Assembly (NCBI GenBank): GCA_900315545.1
Contig: OMZM01000011.1
Coordinates: 11,760 to 75,759, forward strand
Source of the DNA: an uncultured Prevotella sp.
Lineage (GTDB): Bacteria; Bacteroidota; Bacteroidia; Bacteroidales; Bacteroidaceae
Reading direction: 5' to 3'
DNA: 64,000 bases
Shown here: positions 3,513 through 63,345 of the stretch, in pieces
How positions within the stretch are numbered: position 1 is the first letter of the stretch
Layout: the number at the start of each line of letters is the position of its first letter
The notes under the pieces: model-generated
Database searches by the model: none
What the model was told of the DNA's origin: nothing
What the model saw: only the letters and a program-made list of their open reading frames with translations
Position numbers and translations under genes: made by a program

Positions 3513-3642
3513 TGTCGGGAACGTTAACGGGAACTTCACGATGTAAACAGCGAATATGTAGCGTTGTCATATCCACCCGCGTAAGTCAGTTCCCGTACCC
3601 GTTAAGGTTGTCGTTGCAGTTATCGTTAAGGTTCCCGTTAAA
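3513..3642. repeat. 6-bp-periodic low-complexity repeat with inverted arms
   Basis: AACGTTAACGGGAAC on the left and GTTCCCGTACCCGTTAAGGTTGTCGTTGCAGTTATCGTTAAGGTTCCCGTTAA on the right (GTTnnn units); TTAACGGGAAC and GTTCCCGTTAA are reverse complements. Confidence 0.65.
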
Positions 3643-3647
3643 ATCAT

Positions 3648-4097
3648 CTCACTACAAAAACCGTGCCAAACTCGACGGAATTTTCTTTCGCGACGAAAAA
3701 TGATGAATAATTTTGACACAGAAAAACTCTCCAAATAGAATCGGAACAGCCCCTGAAACTGCAAAATTCTGTTAAATTACGGGTCGGCGATAACTGTTAA
3801 AATTGTCAAAGAGTATCTTTGACGCGCCTGTTTCGTCTATTTTGCCCTGCAAAACACAGTGCCCGACACCCCCAAACACTATGTCTGACATCCTCAAAGA
3901 GTGTGTTTGACAATCTCAAACATGCTCTTTGACATTTTTAACACTTCTATTTCCTGCACAGAAACACCATATTGCAGTTAACAAACTGACTGTCAAGAGA
4001 TTGCAGCTGCATGCGAATTTTGGGCGTATTTTGCCCCTCAGATTTCGGAAACGACTTTCGCGGGCATTCTCGCGACAGTAAACGACCCGAAATTGAT
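3648..4097 (+). repeat. Dispersed intergenic repeat family A, copy 1 (~450 bp)
   Basis: Homologous to 31544-31995 (-), 39528-39925 (+) and 62841-63252 (-). Shared ends CTCAC..CAAAAACCGTGCCAAA and TCGCGGGCATTCTCGCGACAGTAAAC..AATTGAT; internal TCAAA-N7-TTTGA array. Confidence 0.92.
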
Positions 4098-4516
4098 AAA
4101 AAAAATACTTATAGATAATTAAATCTTAAATTGAATTAAAATATAAAACATTATATTATTTATACATAATAGTTTATTATCTTTGCAAATAAATTTAGAC
4201 TCTGTAAAGTCCAAAATAAATGTAAAACTCATTGTGAAAAAAGGCAAGGACAACCTTCAGAGCCACAATGAATAAAAATGTTAGAGAAATAGTATAATAT
4301 TATTAATTTAGACATCCTTGACTAAACTGAAAAAGCAGAATTAGCACTTCAGAAAAATATCAGTTCAGCTAAGACAATGGATACCTACGCTTTAATAATG
4401 GGCGTGGATAAAAATGTTGTTGACTGATATGGGCAGTGCTAAGCCTTGCTTATCAACCACTTTCCACGCCCTATTTCATTAACAAAAAGGGGCTTTTGGC
4501 TTACTATATTACAAAT

Positions 4517-5536
4517 ATGAGACCAAACAAGGAATATGTAAAGATTAATGACAATTTAGAAAAGGTTAAAAATTTTGTCAACGAAATTATTATTACACCG
4601 AAACATGCTCTTACAAAATGGGCTAAAATTACGAATCAGACTCCTGCTGCAAAAATAGGATACATCGGACAACACCTTATTTCAATTATTACAGGAGTTC
4701 CTGGAACTGGAACAGGAGCAAGAGGGGACGATTTGGCAGATGGGTCTGAAATAAAATCATGCAACAAAATAGATCAGGTGGATAAATGTAATGATTGTGG
4801 AAGCAGAGTTCTCAGAATAGAATCAAAATGTTCTGTCTGTGGAAGTAAAAAAATAGAAAGGAAAAATGATAGCAAATGGTTGTTTGGGGTTAGAGATGAA
4901 CATGAATTAAAACAATATCTTAACATGGACAGGATAGTACTTTTATTAATGGACTATCCAAAATTTGAAGAAGGGGATTATAAAGATATTAGAATTTCTG
5001 TATTTGAAATATACCCAAAAGAAGACAGGATGAGCGTTTTTGGTAATTTATTATCAAATCATTATTACAACATTTACACACCCAAACTTAAAGACAATAA
5101 AAAAACAAATCCGATGAATCTTCATCCATGGTCATTTCAATTTTACAAGTGCAATCCTATAAAAATTTTTGAGTGCATCATAAAAAACATTGATACTTCT
5201 CCTACTATAATTATAGAAGAGGATACATATATAAAACCACTTCAAGTACGAGGCAATAATTTGAAACCATTACCAATGCCAAGTACTTTACTAAAAAAAA
5301 ATGAATGGGAAGAAATGATTTCAAAAGTAAATTATAAAACAGATATTTTACCTCTAATCTGTCAAGATTATCTTAACCATAAGAACATTACTACATTAAC
5401 AAAACTTCAATTTAAAAACCTATCTATAAAAGAGAAGCAAAAGGCTTTACCTTTTTTAGACATGAAACTTAGAGATAACATTTCTCTCAGACCTATTGTT
5501 TCTACACAGCAGAAAAAGCATTATCAAAGAGGTTAG
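4517..5536 (+). CDS. Type II restriction endonuclease, MamI-like
   Basis: GQHLISIITGVPGTGTGARGDDLADGSEIKSC segment (PD-(D/E)xK-like DLADGSEIK) resembles the MamI family as I recall it; CxxC-x11-CxxC motif; AT-rich; next to a DNA MTase. Start taken at MRPNK (4517), not the TTG/GTG-type start at 4436. Confidence 0.7.
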   Translation: MRPNKEYVKINDNLEKVKNFVNEIIITPKHALTKWAKITNQTPAAKIGYIGQHLISIITGVPGTGTGARGDDLADGSEIKSCNKIDQVDKCNDCGSRVLRIESKCSVCGSKKIERKNDSKWLFGVRDEHELKQYLNMDRIVLLLMDYPKFEEGDYKDIRISVFEIYPKEDRMSVFGNLLSNHYYNIYTPKLKDNKKTNPMNLHPWSFQFYKCNPIKIFECIIKNIDTSPTIIIEEDTYIKPLQVRGNNLKPLPMPSTLLKKNEWEEMISKVNYKTDILPLICQDYLNHKNITTLTKLQFKNLSIKEKQKALPFLDMKLRDNISLRPIVSTQQKKHYQRG

Positions 5537-6419
5537 GACTATTTGCTTCTTTAATCCTATTAAGTCCTATTTTAAAATAAGTTTCATCCAACTCAATACC
5601 TATATAATGTCTATTAAGTTGGATGCAACTTATTTGGGTCGAGGCAACACCTGAAAAAGGATCCAAAACAACATCACCTTCGTTACTACTAGTTTCGACG
5701 AGTCTTCTTATCAGCTTTAGTGGTTTCTGAGTCGGATGAAAATGTTTTTCTTTATAAAAATCTATATCTGTCCAAACATCTGTAAATCCCATTTGTGGAT
5801 TAAACGTTTGAGCTACTTTCTTATAAGGTAGTTCAAAATCTAATACAACAGATAACTTTTCCCATAAATCTTTAGTTGGGAACTGTTCACATACATTATT
5901 CCCTGTATAAATACTCCACATTCCTCCTCCATTTGATTTAACACCCAAAGATTCATTTATCTGTTTGGCAGATAATCCCTTTTCCTGTTGTTTTTCTTTT
6001 AAAAAAGGTTTTACAAATTTCTTATTGTCTTTTACAATTAGAAGTATACTTTCTGTAACATTTGGAAATATTTTATATTTCTTTGTAGCACGACCACTGA
6101 CGGCTCTCATTCCTTTGTCTATAATAATTTGCTGCCTTAATTCCAGTCCCATTTCTTCTAAGTATGGAACTAAAAGAGCTAAAGTTCTGAAATAACCAAA
6201 ACAATAGAAGCTACCTCCTATTCTTAAGATTCTTGCAGCTTCACGAATCCACTTTAATGACCACTCAACATAATCTTTTTCTGTTCTCCACTTATAATCC
6301 CACTTTTCTCCTATTACTTTCCAATATGGAGGGTCTGCAATTATAAGATCTATCGAATTATTATCGATACTTTTCATTGCTAAAATACAATCATCGTTTA
6401 TATTAATATCGTATTTCAT
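5502..6419 (-). CDS. Beta-class N6-adenine/N4-cytosine DNA methyltransferase
   Basis: Motif IV DPPY near the N-terminus, HPTQKP, and motif I DPFSG near the C-terminus. Convergent with, and overlapping by 35 bp, the endonuclease. Confidence 0.92.
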   Translation of the reverse strand: MKYDININDDCILAMKSIDNNSIDLIIADPPYWKVIGEKWDYKWRTEKDYVEWSLKWIREAARILRIGGSFYCFGYFRTLALLVPYLEEMGLELRQQIIIDKGMRAVSGRATKKYKIFPNVTESILLIVKDNKKFVKPFLKEKQQEKGLSAKQINESLGVKSNGGGMWSIYTGNNVCEQFPTKDLWEKLSVVLDFELPYKKVAQTFNPQMGFTDVWTDIDFYKEKHFHPTQKPLKLIRRLVETSSNEGDVVLDPFSGVASTQISCIQLNRHYIGIELDETYFKIGLNRIKEANSPNLFDNAFSAV

Positions 6420-19138: not shown

Positions 19139-19254
19139 TTACAGGATTTGGATAAATCTTCTGTAATCCTTTTACAAGTATGCTGTAACAGCGTTACAGA
19201 CTATTCGTCACGCTGTTACGGAGTATCTGTCACGACATTACAAGCCGTTTGTAA
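19139..19254. repeat. Dispersed intergenic repeat family B, copy 1: phased TTACA-N7-TGT(A/C)A array
   Basis: Units start at 19150, 19172, 19194, 19216 and 19238 (exact 22-bp period); homologous to 49353-49468. Confidence 0.88.
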
Positions 19255-31543: not shown

Positions 31544-31995
31544 AATCAATTATTGCCCGTTTAGTGTCGCGAGAATGCACGCGAAACCCGTTTCGGAAAT
31601 CTGAGGGGCAAAATATGCCCGTATTTCGCGTGCATCTGCAATCGCCTGACAGTCAGTTTGTTATCTGCAAACATGGTGTTTCTGTGCAGGAAACAGAAGT
31701 GTTAAAATTGTCAAAGAGCATGTTTGAGATTGTCAAACACACTGTTTGAGGATGTCAGACATAGTGTTTGGGGGTGTCGGACGCTATGACTGACAGGGCA
31801 AAACAGGCGAAATAGAAGCCTCAAAGATGCTCTTTGACATTTTTAACAGTTGTCGCCGAGCGTGGAATTAACACATTTTTGCAGTTTCAGGGGCTAAAAC
31901 TTTTCTATTTGGAGAGTTTTTCTGTGTCAAAAATTTTCATACTTTTTCGGGTCGGAGGAAAATCCTGATGAGTTTGGCACGGTTTTTGCTGTGAG
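31544..31995 (-). repeat. Dispersed intergenic repeat family A, copy 2
   Basis: Reverse-complement homolog of 3648-4097. Confidence 0.92.
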
Positions 31996-34396: not shown

Positions 34397-35284
34397 CTAT
34401 GAATTAACCTTCTCAGCCTTACGCAAATGGCTGACAAACATATCCTGTATCTCGGCTATCTGTCCCAGTCCTTCCATGTTTACCGACACTTTCAGACCCT
34501 CTTTCTCAAGCTCTCCCTTCCATTCCACCGATATATCGTTGGCTGCATGGTCGCCCGCAACAAACATCATCGGCACAAGTACGACACTGCGCGCCTTCGA
34601 TTGCTTCAGCTTTCTGACCACATCGCCGAAAGCAGGATAGCCCTCTATCGTTCCGACATGATAGTTTCCACAGCCTTTGGCAGCCAGCATATAGTCCAAC
34701 ATGCCATATACCGCCGTGTCGATGGTTTCCGTTCCATGACCGACAAACACTACATGCTCGCCTTTCTTGCCGTTGGCAACATTGCGCCTGGTCAGTATGT
34801 CAGCCACCTTTCCTACTTCCTCAGCATCGCATAACAATGGCTTGCCAACGCGAATGTCATCGAAAAACGGCGCCATAGAGCGCATTTCCGACAGCAGCAT
34901 ATTGTATTCTATTCCACAAATGACATTAGTGCTCTGCACGACGACCCTCGTATAGCCCTCACTGCGCAGGCTCATCAGCGCCTCAACGGGCGTCTGCCTG
35001 ACTATGCCGCGCTCCTTCAGGCGCTTGATAATAATGCGCGACGTGTAAGCCTCACGCACCTCGACACCCGGATAGCAGCCCTTCACCTTCTCGTTGATGG
35101 CATCTATCGTCAAGGCGCGCGTCCCGTCGTAGGTAGTACCGAAGTGAACCATCAGCACGGCAACACTCTTTCCGTTCTCCGAACCTGCCGACAACATGCT
35201 CTCAACACTCTCCGTCTTCTGCGCAAAGCCTGCCGTAGAAAGCACCAGAAGACACAACAAAATCAGATTTCTCATACCTTTCAT
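34397..35284 (-). CDS. cbiK: Sirohydrochlorin cobaltochelatase CbiK family protein with Sec signal peptide
   Basis: LMVHFGTT, REAYTSRII and both metal-ligand His motifs (FVGHGT, MFVAGDHA); N-terminus MKGMRNLILLCLLVLSTAGFA-Q looks like a cleavable signal peptide. Confidence 0.88.
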   Translation of the reverse strand: MKGMRNLILLCLLVLSTAGFAQKTESVESMLSAGSENGKSVAVLMVHFGTTYDGTRALTIDAINEKVKGCYPGVEVREAYTSRIIIKRLKERGIVRQTPVEALMSLRSEGYTRVVVQSTNVICGIEYNMLLSEMRSMAPFFDDIRVGKPLLCDAEEVGKVADILTRRNVANGKKGEHVVFVGHGTETIDTAVYGMLDYMLAAKGCGNYHVGTIEGYPAFGDVVRKLKQSKARSVVLVPMMFVAGDHAANDISVEWKGELEKEGLKVSVNMEGLGQIAEIQDMFVSHLRKAEKVNS

Positions 35285-35388
35285 AACATAATATTTATAT
35301 TTATATAACATTAATAATACACTTTCATAACATTATTGATACACTTTCATAACACTAATAATATGCTTTCATAACATTATTGATACGC
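35279..35388. repeat. Five tandem 22-bp AT-rich repeats at the cbiK start
   Basis: Units at 35279, 35301, 35323, 35345 and 35367, consensus TTTCATAACATTA(T/A)T(G/A)ATAC(A/G)C. Confidence 0.85.
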
Positions 35389-35514
35389 TCTAAAAACGTC
35401 GGCAAAGGTATCTCAAATAATGATTTTCGACAATTTTTCGCTCAATAATACTGCATGAGAGTGAAAAATTTTTGCTTTTTTATTGCAGATTAAAGTTTTT
35501 TATATACTTTTGCA

Positions 35515-35676
35515 GCGGATTTTGGTAACCAAAGCATGCATGCTTGGTTTTAAAAGGGAATTAGGTGCAAAGCCTAAACAGTGCCCGCTACTGTGATATC
35601 CATTATGTTAAACTCAAATAAACCACTGTCATTTACGGGAAGGTGAGTTTATCGGATTAAGTCAGGAGACCTGCCT
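35515..35676 (+). ncRNA. Cobalamin riboswitch
   Basis: Diagnostic segments AAAAGGGAA-TTAGGTGCAAAGCCTAA-ACAGTGCCCGCTACTGT, CCACTG...GGGAAGG and AAGTCAGGAGACCTGCC, between a TACTTTTG promoter box and the TonB receptor gene. Confidence 0.93.
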
Positions 35677-35743
35677 CTATTCCATAAAGGGTAAAAATCT
35701 CTTCGGGGTCAAGGAGATAATTTTATTAACTAACTATATTTTT

Positions 35744-49352: not shown

Positions 49353-49468
49353 TTACAGGATTTCTACAACAATTCTGTAATGCTTTTACAAATAGCCTGT
49401 AAAAGCATTACAAACACTCTGTCACGGTGTTACGGAATACTTGTCACGCTTTTACAAACAACTTGTAA
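49353..49468. repeat. Dispersed intergenic repeat family B, copy 2
   Basis: Units at 49364, 49386, 49408, 49430 and 49452 (exact 22-bp period), with the same half-site order as the copy at 19139. Confidence 0.88.
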
Positions 49469-62702: not shown

Positions 62703-62840
62703 GGTGTGTGTTGTTTGTAATAATACATTACTTGACAAAGATACGATTATGTTGGGAATTGACAAAATTATTTCAGGAAAATCGGATGCAAGTATTTAAA
62801 AATTTGATGTGAAACGGCTCTTGCGTGCCGGAAAAATACT

Positions 62841-63252
62841 AATCAATTTTCGCCCGTTTACTGTCGCGAGAATGCCCGCGAAACCCGTTTCCGAAATCTG
62901 AGGGGCAAAATACGCCCAAAATTCCTGCAAATATAAGCCTTTTATGCAGGAAATTCAAGTGTTAAAAATGTCAAAGAGCATGTTTGAGATTGTCAAACAG
63001 TGTGTTTGAGGCTGCCAAACATAGTGTTTGGGGCTTTCAGACACAATATTTCGCAAGCCAAAATACACAAATAAGCGCCTCAAACATGCTCTTTGACATT
63101 TTTAACACTTATCGCCGACCTCGAAATTAACACAAATTAGCATTTTCAGAGGCTGTAAAAATTCTATTTGGAGACTTTTCCTCTGTCAAAATTTTTCATC
63201 ATTTTTCGGCTCGGATGAAAATCCTGAAGAGTTTGGCACGGTTTTTGCAGGG
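62841..63252 (-). repeat. Dispersed intergenic repeat family A, copy 4
   Basis: Reverse-complement homolog of copy 1; array units at 62971, 62993, 63015, 63037, ~63058 and 63080. Confidence 0.92.
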
Positions 63253-63345
63253 AGACGACAGATAAGTCAAAAATTTGACGTTTTATTTTGTATTGTTCTC
63301 ACTTAATCGTATCTTTGCACTTTATTTAGAATAAATAAAACAGAA

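What the first reader, a model, noticed from the sequence alone, without database searches (positions are those of the whole stretch)
3806..3932. Two unrelated repeat families share one geometry: 5-bp inverted half-sites, variable 7-bp spacer, exact 22-bp period
Seen: family A has TCAAA-N7-TTTGA units at 3806, 3894 and 3916, with degenerate units at 3850 and 3872 (first to last = 110 bp = 5x22); copy 4 has six units (62971-63080). Family B has TTACA-N7-TGT(A/C)A units five times at exact 22-bp steps in both copies (19150-19238 and 49364-49452). Half-sites are conserved between copies while the N7 and N5 linkers vary. Known: 22 bp is about two helical turns, so all sites face one side of the helix; inverted binding elements around a 7-bp overlap is the core-site geometry of lambda Int and Bacteroides IntDOT. 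Inference: arrays for cooperative loading of a dimeric DNA-binding protein (nucleoid organiser, regulator sink, or tyrosine-recombinase core-like sites), with two specificities. This could be an undescribed genome-wide system.
Basis: partly seen in the sequence, partly recalled or inferred. Interest (0 to 1): 0.8.

Follow-up and report, generated by a model that had tools for sequence, protein, structure and literature searches.

The report
Evenly spaced palindrome-array repeat elements
The 22-bp palindrome arrays are the cores of one species-specific family of about 185 intergenic repeat elements that lie at unusually even intervals of about 11 kb around a rumen Prevotella-type genome, a spacing I know of for no other bacterial repeat family.

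Summary
Arrays of at least three perfect 5-N7-5 palindromes occur only at period 22 (35 arrays; none at periods 17-30 or in shuffles), with only TCAAA or TTACA half-sites.

The two families are linked. A-type units form the fixed 148-149-bp centre of a ~455-bp intergenic element with no terminal inverted repeats or target-site duplication (112 full copies, 159 loci). Nine elements keep the same arms around a B-type array; 26 B arrays stand alone.

Half-sites are near-invariant (0.97 in A, 0.93 in B). B spacers drift (0.58); A spacers are conserved (0.90). No compensatory changes occur, which points to sequence-specific protein binding rather than hairpins.

New findings:
- A and stand-alone B loci form one lattice: median spacing 11.2 kb, CV 0.34 (null 0.84), almost nothing under 6 kb. 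A saturated parking model with a 7-kb exclusion reproduces it.
- B-type arrays occur in about 7% of sampled congeners; the A element occurs essentially only here.
- Between strains, family-variable positions differ 5-7 times more than other intergenic DNA, in tracts.
- Restriction-modification and defence cassettes abut element ends, two with 28-30-bp direct repeats of the left terminus.

Best reading: a modular non-autonomous element that spread to saturation under self-exclusion. A host lattice function is not excluded.

The parts
3648..4098 (+). A-type element, copy 1: left arm, six-unit array, right arm.
   Evidence: blastn finds 112 full-length copies in the genome with sharp shared ends. 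The left boundary lies about 7 nt before CAAAAACC. The right end is TTGAT(T)A plus a short T run.
3795..3943 (+). Central 149-bp segment, bounded by the 19-bp inverted repeat TGTTAAAATTGTCAAAGAG / CTCTTTGACA(A/T)TTTTAACA. It holds units u1-u6 at 22-bp steps.
   Evidence: Length is 148-149 bp in 105 of 107 copies. As single-stranded DNA it folds with z = -6.3. The consensus matches itself 0.49 at lag 22, against about 0.25 at other lags.
3806..3822 (.). Unit u1, TCAAAGAGTATCTTTGA.
   Evidence: the outer five base pairs are kept in 105-108 of 108 copies.
3850..3888 (.). Units u3 (degenerate) and u4 (CCAAACACTATGTCTGA).
   Evidence: The degeneracy is itself conserved across copies, so each unit has its own identity.
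3894..3932 (.). Units u5 and u6, TCAAA-N7-TTTGA twice.
   Evidence: u6 keeps a C.C mismatch at pair 6 in 107 of 108 copies. The u5 loop occurs as GTG or as CAC.
31544..31995 (-). A-type element, copy 2.
   Evidence: Inverted-repeat pairs I1 and I6; blastn 84% over 462 bp.
39522..39927 (+). A-type element, copy 3. It lacks u6 and part of the right arm.
   Evidence: In the second strain the left three quarters of this copy differ and a 3.4-kb LRR-protein gene lies next to its left end.
62840..63254 (-). A-type element, copy 4, with six good units at 62971-63080.
19139..19254 (.). Stand-alone B-type array (TTACA-N7-TGTAA/TGTCA, 22-bp steps), just after the polA-like ORF.
   Evidence: It lies 15.3 and 12.6 kb from the neighbouring A copies.
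49353..49468 (.). Stand-alone B-type array between convergent genes.
   Evidence: It lies 9.7 and 13.6 kb from the neighbouring A copies.
3517..3641 (+). Hexamer-repeat module (NN[C/G]GTT)n just upstream of the left end of copy 1.
   Evidence: TRF period 12 at 3598-3641. The same module lies upstream of the left end in 14 of 101 copies and is strongly oriented. A module of about 200 bp is present or absent between strains at C23:18387.
4436..6419 (.). Type II restriction-modification cassette next to the right end of copy 1: MamI-family endonuclease and N6/N4 methylase. An AT-rich stretch at 4100-4300 precedes it.
   Evidence: Pfam RE_MamI 3e-69 and N6_N4_Mtase 2e-41.

Best explanation
The arrays belong to one modular, non-coding, non-autonomous intergenic element: a left arm of about 150 bp, a phased array of inverted half-sites every 11 bp (22-bp units), and a right arm of about 150 bp.

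Two array types exist: TCAAA/TTTGA (A) and TTACA/TGTAA (B). B also occurs as a bare array of about 115 bp.

Inferred: the half-sites are sequence-specific binding sites for a dimeric or multimeric DNA-binding protein, most likely the element's mobilising or partner protein, which was not found in this 92%-complete assembly.

Shown: the family expanded in this species to about 185 loci and filled the chromosome to a jamming limit. No two loci lie closer than about 6-7 kb, whatever their type or orientation.

Inferred: this reflects a target-immunity-like self-exclusion exerted by the protein-bound arrays. The known analogues are the multiple 22-bp transposase sites in Tn7 and Mu ends, which confer immunity on flanking DNA.

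Shown for tracts, inferred for mechanism: after insertion, copies exchange short patches by gene conversion. Their ends, especially the left terminus, act as landing sites for small restriction-modification and defence cassettes.
For: One family with modular centres:
- 112 full copies and 159 loci with sharp common ends.
- Nine hybrids carry A arms around a B array.

Protein-type constraint:
- Half-site conservation is 0.967 (A) and 0.927 (B), against B spacers at 0.58.
- There are 0 compensatory pairs in 108 copies, and a C.C mismatch is kept in 107 of 108.
- B half-sites and the 22-bp phase are kept in 29 other genomes of the genus with unrelated spacers. The reversed-pattern control gives zero in most genomes, but 37 and 13 matches in two.

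Behaviour as a mobile or expanded element:
- Only intergenic; no orientation bias relative to neighbouring genes (35/24/23/21 across the four contexts).
- Absent from 400 sampled congeners except one truncated copy.

Exclusion and saturation:
- 133 spacings of A plus stand-alone B: mean 11.9 kb, median 11.2 kb, CV 0.337. The null gives 0.84 +/- 0.06, and the lowest of 3000 simulations was 0.64.
- The 5th to 95th percentiles are 7.0-18.8 kb.
- B arrays lie at least 6 kb from any A (p about 0.001).
- Same-orientation and opposite-orientation pairs show the same floor.
- A parking simulation with d = 7 kb gives mean 11.7 kb, median 11.0 kb, CV 0.30 and p95 18.7 kb.
- Array-less solo left ends do sit 1.4-4.5 kb from full copies.
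- The widest gaps are low-GC regions (0.385-0.44 against 0.46 for the genome).

Conversion:
- Between-strain differences are 6.9% at family-variable positions, 0.95% at family-conserved positions and 1.28% in other intergenic DNA.
- The differences cluster in tracts. One tract matches other copies better than its own ortholog.

Cassettes:
-.
- Three of six pure indels lie within 120 bp of an element end, where 5.5% is expected (p = 0.003).
Against: - No mobilising enzyme was found. There is no serine recombinase, Y1 transposase or IS110. The only rve-domain protein is a single IS30-type transposase. Four tyrosine recombinases are present, none linked to the elements.
- There are no terminal inverted repeats and no target-site duplication, so the transposition chemistry is unknown.
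- No empty site for a whole element was seen between the two strains; 37 of 37 resolvable copies are shared. Mobility is therefore inferred, not shown.
- Cross-exclusion between A and B, which have different half-sites, is awkward for classical target immunity, which depends on the cognate transposase.
- The arrays lie in the middle of the element, not at its ends as in Tn7 and Mu.
- In-situ conservation of B half-sites amid near-random spacers could equally reflect a host function.
Confidence: 0.5

Rival explanations
1. Host-selected chromosome lattice. The arrays are loading or anchoring sites for a nucleoid-organising protein, such as a domain barrier, a clamp loader or a bridging protein. 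Selection keeps about one site every 11 kb, and A and B are interchangeable site types.
For: - A and stand-alone B form one regular lattice. Adding B lowers the CV from 0.51 to 0.34, and B arrays sit in the large A-A gaps.
- B half-sites stay at 0.93 while spacers have drifted to 0.58, which suggests purifying selection in place.
- Family-conserved positions evolve at the background rate while the neighbouring variable positions change fast.
- B-type arrays of about 4-6 units recur in about 7% of sampled congeners.
- The shared geometry with different half-sites fits paralogous binders or a reader of geometry.
Against: - The spacing distribution has a sharp floor and a long upper tail, as exclusion plus saturation predicts, rather than a symmetric optimum.
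- Other species with B arrays have far fewer of them, at irregular distances. In G323 contig C1 the matches lie at 129, 294, 329, 388 and 407 kb. A lattice is therefore not a general need of the genus.
- The A element is absent from 400 congeners.
- There is no extra ParB-type protein: one copy, as in relatives.
- No candidate protein was identified.
Confidence: 0.25
2. Recombination-site arrays. Each palindrome is a core-type site for a tyrosine recombinase: inverted binding elements around a 7-bp overlap. The elements then exist to mediate inversion, excision or cassette capture.
For: - Strain-variable cassettes abut the elements: an EcoRII-type system with a C5 methylase, a YhcG/DUF1016 nuclease, an Abi_2 plus HerA-like island, and an LRR-protein gene.
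- Two single-gene cassettes are flanked by 28-30-bp direct repeats of the element's left terminus, and one has an empty site in the other strain. This looks like site-specific integration.
- Four tyrosine recombinases are present, including a tandem pair.
- Unit u1 contains GTATCTTTG. From my own memory this resembles the IntDOT target GTANNTTTGC; it is a lead, not a test.
Against: - The direct repeats and junctions lie in the left terminus (CAAAAAC(C/T)GTGCCAAA...), not in the arrays.
- No junction, inversion or deletion end-point was seen inside a palindrome unit.
- Array length is invariant in 105 of 107 copies. Frequent crossover between units should vary it by multiples of 22 bp.
- No recombinase gene is linked to any element.
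- Only a handful of about 185 loci carry cassettes.
Confidence: 0.1
3. Structure-based element of the REP/BIME or BOX kind. The tandem palindromes act as hairpins in RNA or single-stranded DNA, as terminators or mRNA stabilisers, or as substrates of a hairpin-recognising Y1 transposase.
For: - The arrays fold well as single strands: z = -6.3 for A and -4.2 / -5.3 for B.
- The u5 loop occurs in both orientations, GTG and CAC, as expected if hairpins form during replication.
- BIMEs likewise have regularly spaced palindromes in alternating orientation (abstract of PMC2817692).
Against: - There are zero compensatory substitutions in any stem among 108 copies. Single-sided changes mostly break pairing, and a C.C mismatch is conserved.
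- The mutual-information scan finds only subfamily linkage, no helices.
- There is no Rfam match.
- There is no orientation bias relative to flanking genes.
- The genome has no Y1 (RAYT/IS200) transposase.
Confidence: 0.08
4. Neutral relic: an old tandem duplication carried passively by a decaying repeat, with no present function for the units.
For: In A the spacers are nearly as conserved as the half-sites (0.90 against 0.97), and each unit has a fixed identity inherited from a master copy.
Against: - B half-sites are at 0.93 against spacers at 0.58.
- Conservation along A is strongly bimodal.
- Between strains, conserved positions change about 7 times less than variable ones within the same elements.
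- The same half-sites and phase recur across species.
- The loci are non-randomly spaced.
Confidence: 0.03

Closest known systems
BrickBuilt MITE of Porphyromonas gingivalis (Klein et al. 2015, PMC4596501)
   Same: It is a Bacteroidales, species-restricted, strictly intergenic element built as a non-repetitive leader, tandem 23-nt repeats and a tail. It has about 19 copies and no ORF. The same paper notes 22-, 23- and 41-nt tandem repeats as recurrent in that genome.
   Different: BrickBuilt has IS5-like 12-bp terminal inverted repeats and a variable repeat number (1 to 22.8). Palindromic units are not described, and no regular spacing is reported. Here there are no terminal inverted repeats or target-site duplications, the unit number is fixed at six, the units are palindromic, there are about 185 loci, and they form a kb-scale lattice.
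REP/BIME mosaic elements and REPINs of proteobacteria (PMC2817692, PMC3116915)
   Same: They are high-copy intergenic palindromes arranged at regular short distances in alternating orientation. They are bound by host proteins (IHF, gyrase and Pol I, from my own knowledge) and are targets of other mobile DNA.
   Different: REPs are GC-rich palindromes of 20-40 nt mobilised by RAYT Y1 transposases. None is present here, and the half-sites are AT-rich 5-7-mers at a strict 22-bp phase. In Pseudomonas SBW25 the test for whether REPIN doublets are placed at random in extragenic space was against a random model, and no kb-scale lattice is reported there.
BOX elements of Streptococcus pneumoniae (own knowledge)
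   Same: They have a modular boxA-boxB(n)-boxC architecture, more than 100 intergenic copies, no ORF, and an unidentified mobilising enzyme.
   Different: The number of boxB copies varies and the modules are 45-59 bp. They are thought to act as RNA structures. No even spacing is known.
Transposase-binding arrays of Tn7 and Mu ends, and their target immunity (own knowledge)
   Same: They have multiple 22-bp protein-binding repeats over about 90-150 bp. DNA carrying such arrays repels new insertions over several kb to tens of kb, which would produce the exclusion zone seen here. The central segment begins TGT and ends ACA.
   Different: In Tn7 and Mu the arrays lie at the two termini of an autonomous element, with a 5-bp target-site duplication and TnsB/MuA plus TnsC/MuB genes. 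Here the array is internal, there is no target-site duplication, and no such genes were found.
Plasmid iterons (e.g. review PMC4980987)
   Same: Three to seven repeats at a spacing of about 22 bp (two helical turns), placing bound protein on one face of the helix.
   Different: Iterons are direct repeats next to a rep gene and an AT-rich unwinding region, on one replicon. These are inverted half-sites, dispersed about 185 times on a chromosome, with no rep gene.

Membership tests
MITE (miniature inverted-repeat transposable element) | Terminal inverted repeats matching those of a resident IS. | tested here: not met
   The ends CTCCCTGCAAAAACCGTGCC... and ...AAAATTGATTAG are not inverted copies of each other. 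No multi-copy IS shares them.
MITE (miniature inverted-repeat transposable element) | Target-site duplication flanking each copy. | tested here: not met
   The longest k-mer shared between left and right flanks averages 4.76, against 4.69 for shuffled pairs.
MITE (miniature inverted-repeat transposable element) | Small, non-coding, multi-copy and intergenic. | tested here: met
   About 455 bp, 112 full copies and 159 loci, all between ORFs.
MITE (miniature inverted-repeat transposable element) | Presence/absence polymorphism (empty sites) showing mobility. | tested here: inconclusive
   All 37 resolvable copies are shared with the strain that is about 99% identical. Only adjacent cassettes and modules are polymorphic.
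BrickBuilt-like leader / tandem repeat / tail element | Unique leader and tail around tandem repeats of about 22-23 nt. | tested here: met
   Consensus and self-match at lag 22.
BrickBuilt-like leader / tandem repeat / tail element | Variable number of repeats between copies (minisatellite behaviour). | tested here: not met
   The centre is 148-149 bp in 105 of 107 copies.
REP/BIME-REPIN | A cognate RAYT (Y1 transposase) in the genome. | tested here: not met
   PF01797 gives no match in the window's own genome.
REP/BIME-REPIN | Hairpin maintained by selection (compensatory changes). | tested here: not met
   0 compensatory pairs; conserved C.C mismatch.
Tn7/Mu-type transposon ends | Arrays of 22-bp transposase sites at both termini, TGT...ACA ends, and a 5-bp target-site duplication. 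| tested here: not met
   The array is internal. Only the inner 149-bp segment has TGT...ACA ends. There is no target-site duplication.
Tn7/Mu-type transposon ends | A TnsB/MuA-type DDE transposase with a target-selecting ATPase. | tested here: not met
   The only rve-domain hit is one protein I read as an IS30-type transposase. The assembly is 92% complete, so absence is not proven.
Tyrosine-recombinase core sites (lambda Int / IntDOT type) | Strand exchange within the 6-8-bp spacer between the inverted binding elements. | tested here: not met
   No junction falls inside a unit. The recombination scars lie in the left terminus, and array length is invariant.
Tyrosine-recombinase core sites (lambda Int / IntDOT type) | Binding by a cognate recombinase. 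| not testable with these tools
   Four tyrosine recombinases are present, none linked to an element.
Plasmid-type iterons | Direct repeats next to a rep gene and an AT-rich unwinding element. | tested here: not met
   The units are inverted half-sites, dispersed and intergenic between ordinary genes.
Known RNA families (Rfam 15) | A match to a covariance model. | tested here: not met
   Only the cobalamin riboswitch elsewhere in the window reaches its threshold. Nothing significant lies on the element.

The most novel reading that the evidence does not exclude
The arrays are the nucleation sites of a chromosome-wide protein lattice. A DNA-binding protein, or two paralogues, assembles on about 110-150 bp of phased half-sites roughly every 11 kb and occupies or insulates about 7 kb to either side. 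This partitions the 2.3-Mb chromosome into about 190 regular domains. The same occupancy blocks further insertions and channels incoming restriction-modification and defence cassettes to domain borders. It would be a sequence-encoded, evenly spaced domain architecture in a bacterium, carried by a domesticated mobile element.
Probability: 0.25. Interest if true: 0.9.

Novelty: new variant of a known kind. Interest (0 to 1): 0.78.

Why it matters
Dispersed intergenic repeats such as REP/BIME, BOX, Correia and BrickBuilt are common, but I know of none reported to be placed at regular kb-scale intervals.

Here about 185 loci of two sequence types jointly obey a floor of about 7 kb and fill the chromosome to what looks like a parking limit. 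Two readings follow, and either is notable:
- It may be the first genomic footprint of target immunity acting on a non-autonomous element until saturation.
- It may be a sequence-encoded domain lattice.

Both readings are directly testable by ChIP or DAP-seq, Hi-C and long-read population data. Testing would also identify a new DNA-binding specificity that is conserved in part of the genus.

Two further points matter:
- The elements mark where restriction-modification and defence cassettes enter this genome.
- They break short-read assemblies, so contigs from this species appear to have ended up in other rumen MAGs. That matters for users of those MAG catalogues.

Tried and rejected
- **RNA gene:** Rfam at gathering threshold and at E-value threshold found nothing on the element. 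The mutual-information scan of 108 copies showed subfamily linkage only.
- **Hairpin selection:** explicit pair counts showed no compensation.
- **Coding element or autonomous partner:** the genome self-comparison found no IS sharing the ends. The other long repeats are paralogous surface-protein genes.
- **Enzyme hunt:** there is no resolvase, Y1 transposase or IS110. I found one IS30-type transposase, a XerD-like recombinase and three integrases, none adjacent to elements. There is one ordinary ParB, as in relatives.
- **Deletion between direct repeats as the cause of spacing:** rejected, because opposite-orientation pairs show the same floor.
- **Assembly artefact as the cause of spacing:** unlikely, because most copies are assembled through. 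A second assembly of the same species (Ga0256406 contigs) shares the same copies at the same sites (37 of 37 resolvable) and joins G000 contigs through elements.
- **Element in other species:** the copies in RUG13423 and RUG753 lie on contigs 98.3-98.6% identical to this genome, so they are probably mis-binned contigs of the same species. Only RUG624 holds an independent, truncated copy.
- **Phage origin:** the eight viral-contig hits to the 18-specified-base pattern were not examined further. About 17 such matches are expected by chance in the genome-contig scan, which is my own calculation.
- **Family C (35274-35386):** it is not palindromic, does not fold (z = 0.19), is unique in the genome and lies off the lattice. 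It is a separate thing.
- **Canonical Bacteroidetes promoter (TTTG...TAnnTTTG) across the consensus:** I found none by eye. The TAnnTTTG-like strings inside the units lack a properly spaced -33 element.
Full report
**1. The observation**

The pattern is far beyond chance.
- TRF on the whole 2.29-Mb assembly (56 contigs; the window is C14:11760-75759) gives 134 rows of period 22 with at least 2.5 copies. No other period gives more than 22 rows.
It finds 35 arrays at period 22, none at any other period from 17 to 30, and none in shuffled sequence.
- The half-sites found are TCAAA/GTTTG (31 arrays) and TTACA (4). A relaxed scan (four of five matches, at least four units) finds no array outside these two families.
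- All 35 B arrays step by exactly 22 or 44 bp.

**2. What the arrays belong to**

The A units are the centre of a dispersed intergenic element of about 455 bp.
- blastn finds 112 full-length copies, 72-95% identical to the window copy (median 80%), plus about 50 partial copies. Many partial copies lie at contig ends. After merging there are 159 loci.
- The ends are sharp. The left end is (c)TC(c)C(t)G-CAAAAACCGTGCCAAAC. The right end is AAAATTGATTA(g) followed by a short T run.
- There are no terminal inverted repeats and no target-site duplication. The longest k-mer shared between flanks averages 4.76, against 4.69 in shuffled pairs.
- There is no ORF and no Rfam match.
- The element has no preferred orientation relative to neighbouring genes. 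The four contexts count 35 divergent, 21 convergent, and 23 and 24 co-directional.

The centre is bounded by a 19-bp inverted repeat, TGTTAAAATTGTCAAAGAG ... CTCTTTGACAATTTTAACA.
- It is 148-149 bp long in 105 of 107 copies.
- It is therefore a fixed six-unit structure in which every unit has its own identity. Units u2 and u3 are degenerate in all copies. It is not a variable minisatellite.
- The 22-bp periodicity runs on into the right arm. The consensus matches itself 0.49 at lag 22 and 0.40 at lag 44, against about 0.25 elsewhere.

**3. A and B are linked**

Nine loci have the A left arm, one A unit, a B-type array and a homologous right arm. Examples are C26:16936-17357, C15:8918-9342 and C18:136288-136701. 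The other 26 B arrays are bare elements of about 115 bp with no conserved arms. 'Two unrelated families' is therefore wrong. They are alternative array modules of one element system.

**4. What is conserved**

- In A, conservation is 0.967 for half-sites, 0.903 for N7 (0.842 for the central three bases) and 0.835 for N5 linkers. The element mean is 0.832.
- In stand-alone B, conservation is 0.927 for half-sites, 0.576 for N7 and 0.587 for N5.
- In 108 A copies no palindrome stem shows a single compensatory double change. Most one-sided changes break pairing, and u6 keeps a C.C mismatch in 107 of 108 copies.
- A mutual-information scan finds only subfamily linkage.
- The arrays can fold as single strands: z = -6.3 for A and -4.2 / -5.3 for B.

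The pattern of constraint is that of sequence-specific recognition, not of a maintained hairpin. In geometry, the half-sites alternate in orientation about every 11 bp (7+3+7+5 in A; 5-6 + 5-7 in B), so all lie on one face of the helix.

**5. Distribution in other genomes**

- The A element is absent from 400 sampled genomes of the same (very large) genus. The exception is one copy, truncated next to what I read as an IS3-like transposase ORF, in G011, which is RUG624, 'uncultured Prevotellaceae'.
- The copies in RUG13423 and RUG753 lie on contigs 98.3-98.6% identical to this genome. They are most likely contigs of this same species placed in other rumen MAGs.
- B-type geometry behaves differently. 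The pattern TYAMA-N7-TKTRA, twice at 22 bp, occurs in 29 other genomes of the 400, with up to 43 matches per genome. The half-sites are TTACA/TGTAA and the spacers are unrelated. The reversed control pattern gives zero in most genomes.
- In four loci from three of those genomes that I inspected, the arrays have about 2-5 units each.
- The B specificity is therefore older and wider than this species. The A specificity and the large expansion are particular to it.

**6. Spacing, the main new result**

- Within contigs, A loci are spaced with median 11.5 kb and CV 0.51. Random placement in intergenic gaps gives 0.87 +/- 0.07.
- Stand-alone B arrays lie at least 6.0 kb from any A (median 10.6 kb, null median 6.3 kb, p about 0.001). 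They sit in the wide A-A gaps. In the window the series is 3.9, 19.2 (B), 31.8, 39.7, 49.4 (B) and 63.0 kb.
- The joint set of 133 spacings has mean 11.9 kb, median 11.2 kb and CV 0.337. The null is 0.84 +/- 0.06, and the minimum of 3000 simulations was 0.64. The 5th to 95th percentiles are 7.0-18.8 kb, and only two spacings fall below 6 kb.
- The floor is the same for neighbours in the same orientation (10th percentile 7.1 kb) and in opposite orientation (8.1 kb). This argues against loss of close pairs by deletion between direct repeats.
- A random sequential 'parking' simulation, with a 7-kb exclusion distance and one candidate gap per 3.3 kb, gives mean 11.7 kb, median 11.0 kb, CV 0.30 and p95 18.7 kb. 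This is essentially the observed distribution.
- The widest remaining gaps are low-GC stretches (0.385-0.44 against 0.46 for the genome). I infer these are later acquisitions or long operons.
- Array-less solo left ends do occur 1.4-4.5 kb from full copies.
- Assembly bias cannot explain the pattern. Most copies are assembled through, and contigs down to 2 kb are present. An independent assembly of a strain about 99% identical (IMG Ga0256404-07 and ENA OCTW01) is collinear and joins G000 contigs through elements.

**7. Evolution between strains**

I compared 45 orthologous elements with the second strain.
- Differences are 6.9% at family-variable positions, 4.8% at intermediate positions and 0.95% at family-conserved positions. 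Coding DNA differs by 0.83% and other intergenic DNA by 1.28%.
- Differences per element are over-dispersed (mean 14.5, variance 181) and lie in tracts of 30-80 bp.
- One tract matches other copies (93-94%) better than its own ortholog. Another has no donor in this genome.
- I read this as frequent short-patch gene conversion among copies, or an unexplained local hypervariability. It also explains why copies are only about 80% alike although the family is confined to one species.

**8. Cassettes at the ends**

Structural differences between strains concentrate at element ends. Three of six pure indels of at least 300 bp lie within 120 bp of an end, where 5.5% is expected (p = 0.003). Several further cases were seen by eye.
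- C38:22959-25799 is a C5 methylase plus an EcoRII-type endonuclease, exactly at a left end.
- C38:39985-41384 is a YhcG/DUF1016 nuclease. It is flanked by a 28-bp direct repeat that is the element's own left terminus, and the site is empty in the other strain.
- C6:4480-6113 is a single gene between a full element and a solo left end, with a 29-bp repeat.
- A 3.4-kb LRR-protein gene lies next to the left end of window copy 3 in the other strain.
- An island of about 9 kb with Abi_2, a HerA-like ATPase and an SPFH protein lies next to a left end on the RUG13423 contig.
- A hexamer-repeat module of about 200 bp is present or absent at a left end. This module precedes 14 of 101 left ends.
- In the window, a MamI-type restriction-modification pair (4436-6419) follows the right end of copy 1.

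The 28-30-bp repeats look like the product of site-specific integration at the left terminus. Bacteroidales tyrosine integrases are known to leave repeats of about 22 bp (PMC8102008). No enzyme can be assigned.

**9. Enzymes**

- The assembly (92% complete) has no serine recombinase, no Y1 transposase and no IS110-type enzyme.
- It has one protein I read as an IS30-type transposase and one XerD-like recombinase.
- It also has a tandem pair of integrases of about 400 aa, one further integrase and one integrase fragment.
- None is adjacent to an element.
- ParB is single-copy, as in relatives.

**10. Interpretation**

*Shown:*
- one modular element family with two half-site specificities at a strict phase;
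- sequence-level constraint on the half-sites;
- a species-specific expansion;
- joint over-dispersion of A and B with a floor of about 7 kb;
- tract-wise divergence between strains;
- cassette polymorphism at the ends.

*Inferred:*
- that a protein binds the arrays;
- that the family spread by transposition or recombination until the chromosome was saturated;
- that bound arrays repel new copies, as the 22-bp transposase sites of Tn7 and Mu ends do (established knowledge, not tested here).

*Weak points:*
- no enzyme was found;
- no empty site for a whole element was seen;
- the arrays are internal to the element;
- cross-exclusion occurs between two different half-site types.

The last point and the in-place conservation of B half-sites keep a host-function reading alive, in which the loci are evenly spaced loading or barrier sites. 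I give 0.50 to the self-excluding mobile element, 0.25 to the host lattice, 0.10 to recombination-site arrays, 0.08 to a structure-based REP/BOX-like role and 0.03 to a neutral relic.

**11. Comparison with known systems**

The nearest described relative in kind is BrickBuilt of P. gingivalis: leader, 23-nt repeats and tail, intergenic and species-restricted. It differs in having IS5-like terminal inverted repeats and a variable repeat number. BIMEs share regularly spaced palindromes in alternating orientation (PMC2817692). In Pseudomonas SBW25, REPIN doublet placement was tested against a random model (PMC3116915), and no kb-scale lattice is reported there. I found no report of kb-scale even spacing of a bacterial repeat family in the searches I made. 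That is an absence in a limited library, not proof of novelty.

**12. Limits**

Gene calls used for context and for the null models are crude ORF calls. The genome is a draft.

Noticed in passing
window 35274-35386: Five plain tandem 22-bp direct repeats (CTTTCATAACATTAATAATACA) overlap the start of the CbiK gene (34397-35311, minus strand) and lie 120 bp upstream of a cobalamin riboswitch (35506-35692). They are not palindromic, do not fold (z = 0.19), are unique in the genome and lie off the A/B lattice.
   Followed up: partly
genome contigs C53:21217-21318, C17:83402-83495, C41:18910-18981, C50:3441-3505: Further unique, unrelated tandem arrays with period exactly 22 (3 to 4.6 copies). A 22-bp tandem duplication seems to be a recurrent mutational or functional theme in this genome beyond families A and B.
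   Followed up: no
window 3517-3641, and upstream of 14 of 101 element left ends: A hexamer microsatellite (NN[C/G]GTT)n, for example CCCGTT AAGGTT ATCGTT, is attached in one orientation to the left end of a minority of elements. A module of about 200 bp carrying it is present or absent between strains at C23:18387, flanked by an 11-bp repeat.
   Followed up: partly
window 4100-6419: An AT-rich stretch is followed by a MamI-family restriction endonuclease and an N6/N4 DNA methylase, immediately after the right end of element copy 1. It looks like a laterally acquired restriction-modification cassette.
   Followed up: partly
L175 8657-8752 (RUG753 contig ONYL01000038, contig end): The element copy on this contig is interrupted inside its array by unrelated sequence (TTTGACTGGCATGTATATCGGCTAACGGGTGTAAGTCCC...). 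Its start reminded me of a group II intron, but Rfam found nothing in the 96 bases available.
   Followed up: partly
L174 (RUG13423 contig CADALZ010000030) and L175 (RUG753): These contigs from MAGs labelled as other taxa are 98.3-98.6% identical over 6-11 kb to contig C33 of this genome, elements included. They are probably mis-binned contigs of the same species in the rumen MAG catalogue.
   Followed up: partly
L107 4519-4625, matching C22:66756-66857: Identity between the two strains jumps from 86.8% to 98.4% exactly at an A element, as if the element were a recombination breakpoint for an imported segment.
   Followed up: no
genomes G287 and G306 (same genus): The control pattern (the half-sites read backwards) gives 37 and 13 matches in these two genomes. 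Other half-site families with the same 5-N7-5 / 22-bp geometry may therefore exist elsewhere in the genus.
   Followed up: no
genome contig C15:37607-41606: A tandem pair of tyrosine recombinases of about 400 aa is followed by what looks like an AAA-ATPase gene (not checked against Pfam). No element lies between 35.2 kb and the contig end at 45.3 kb.
   Followed up: no
L068 953-2550, against C18:124946-124960: In the other strain a 1.6-kb insert sits inside the loop of a perfect terminator hairpin, 60 bp from an element's right end. It encodes what I read as a small metallopeptidase-like lipoprotein (HExxH motif, not checked against Pfam).
   Followed up: no
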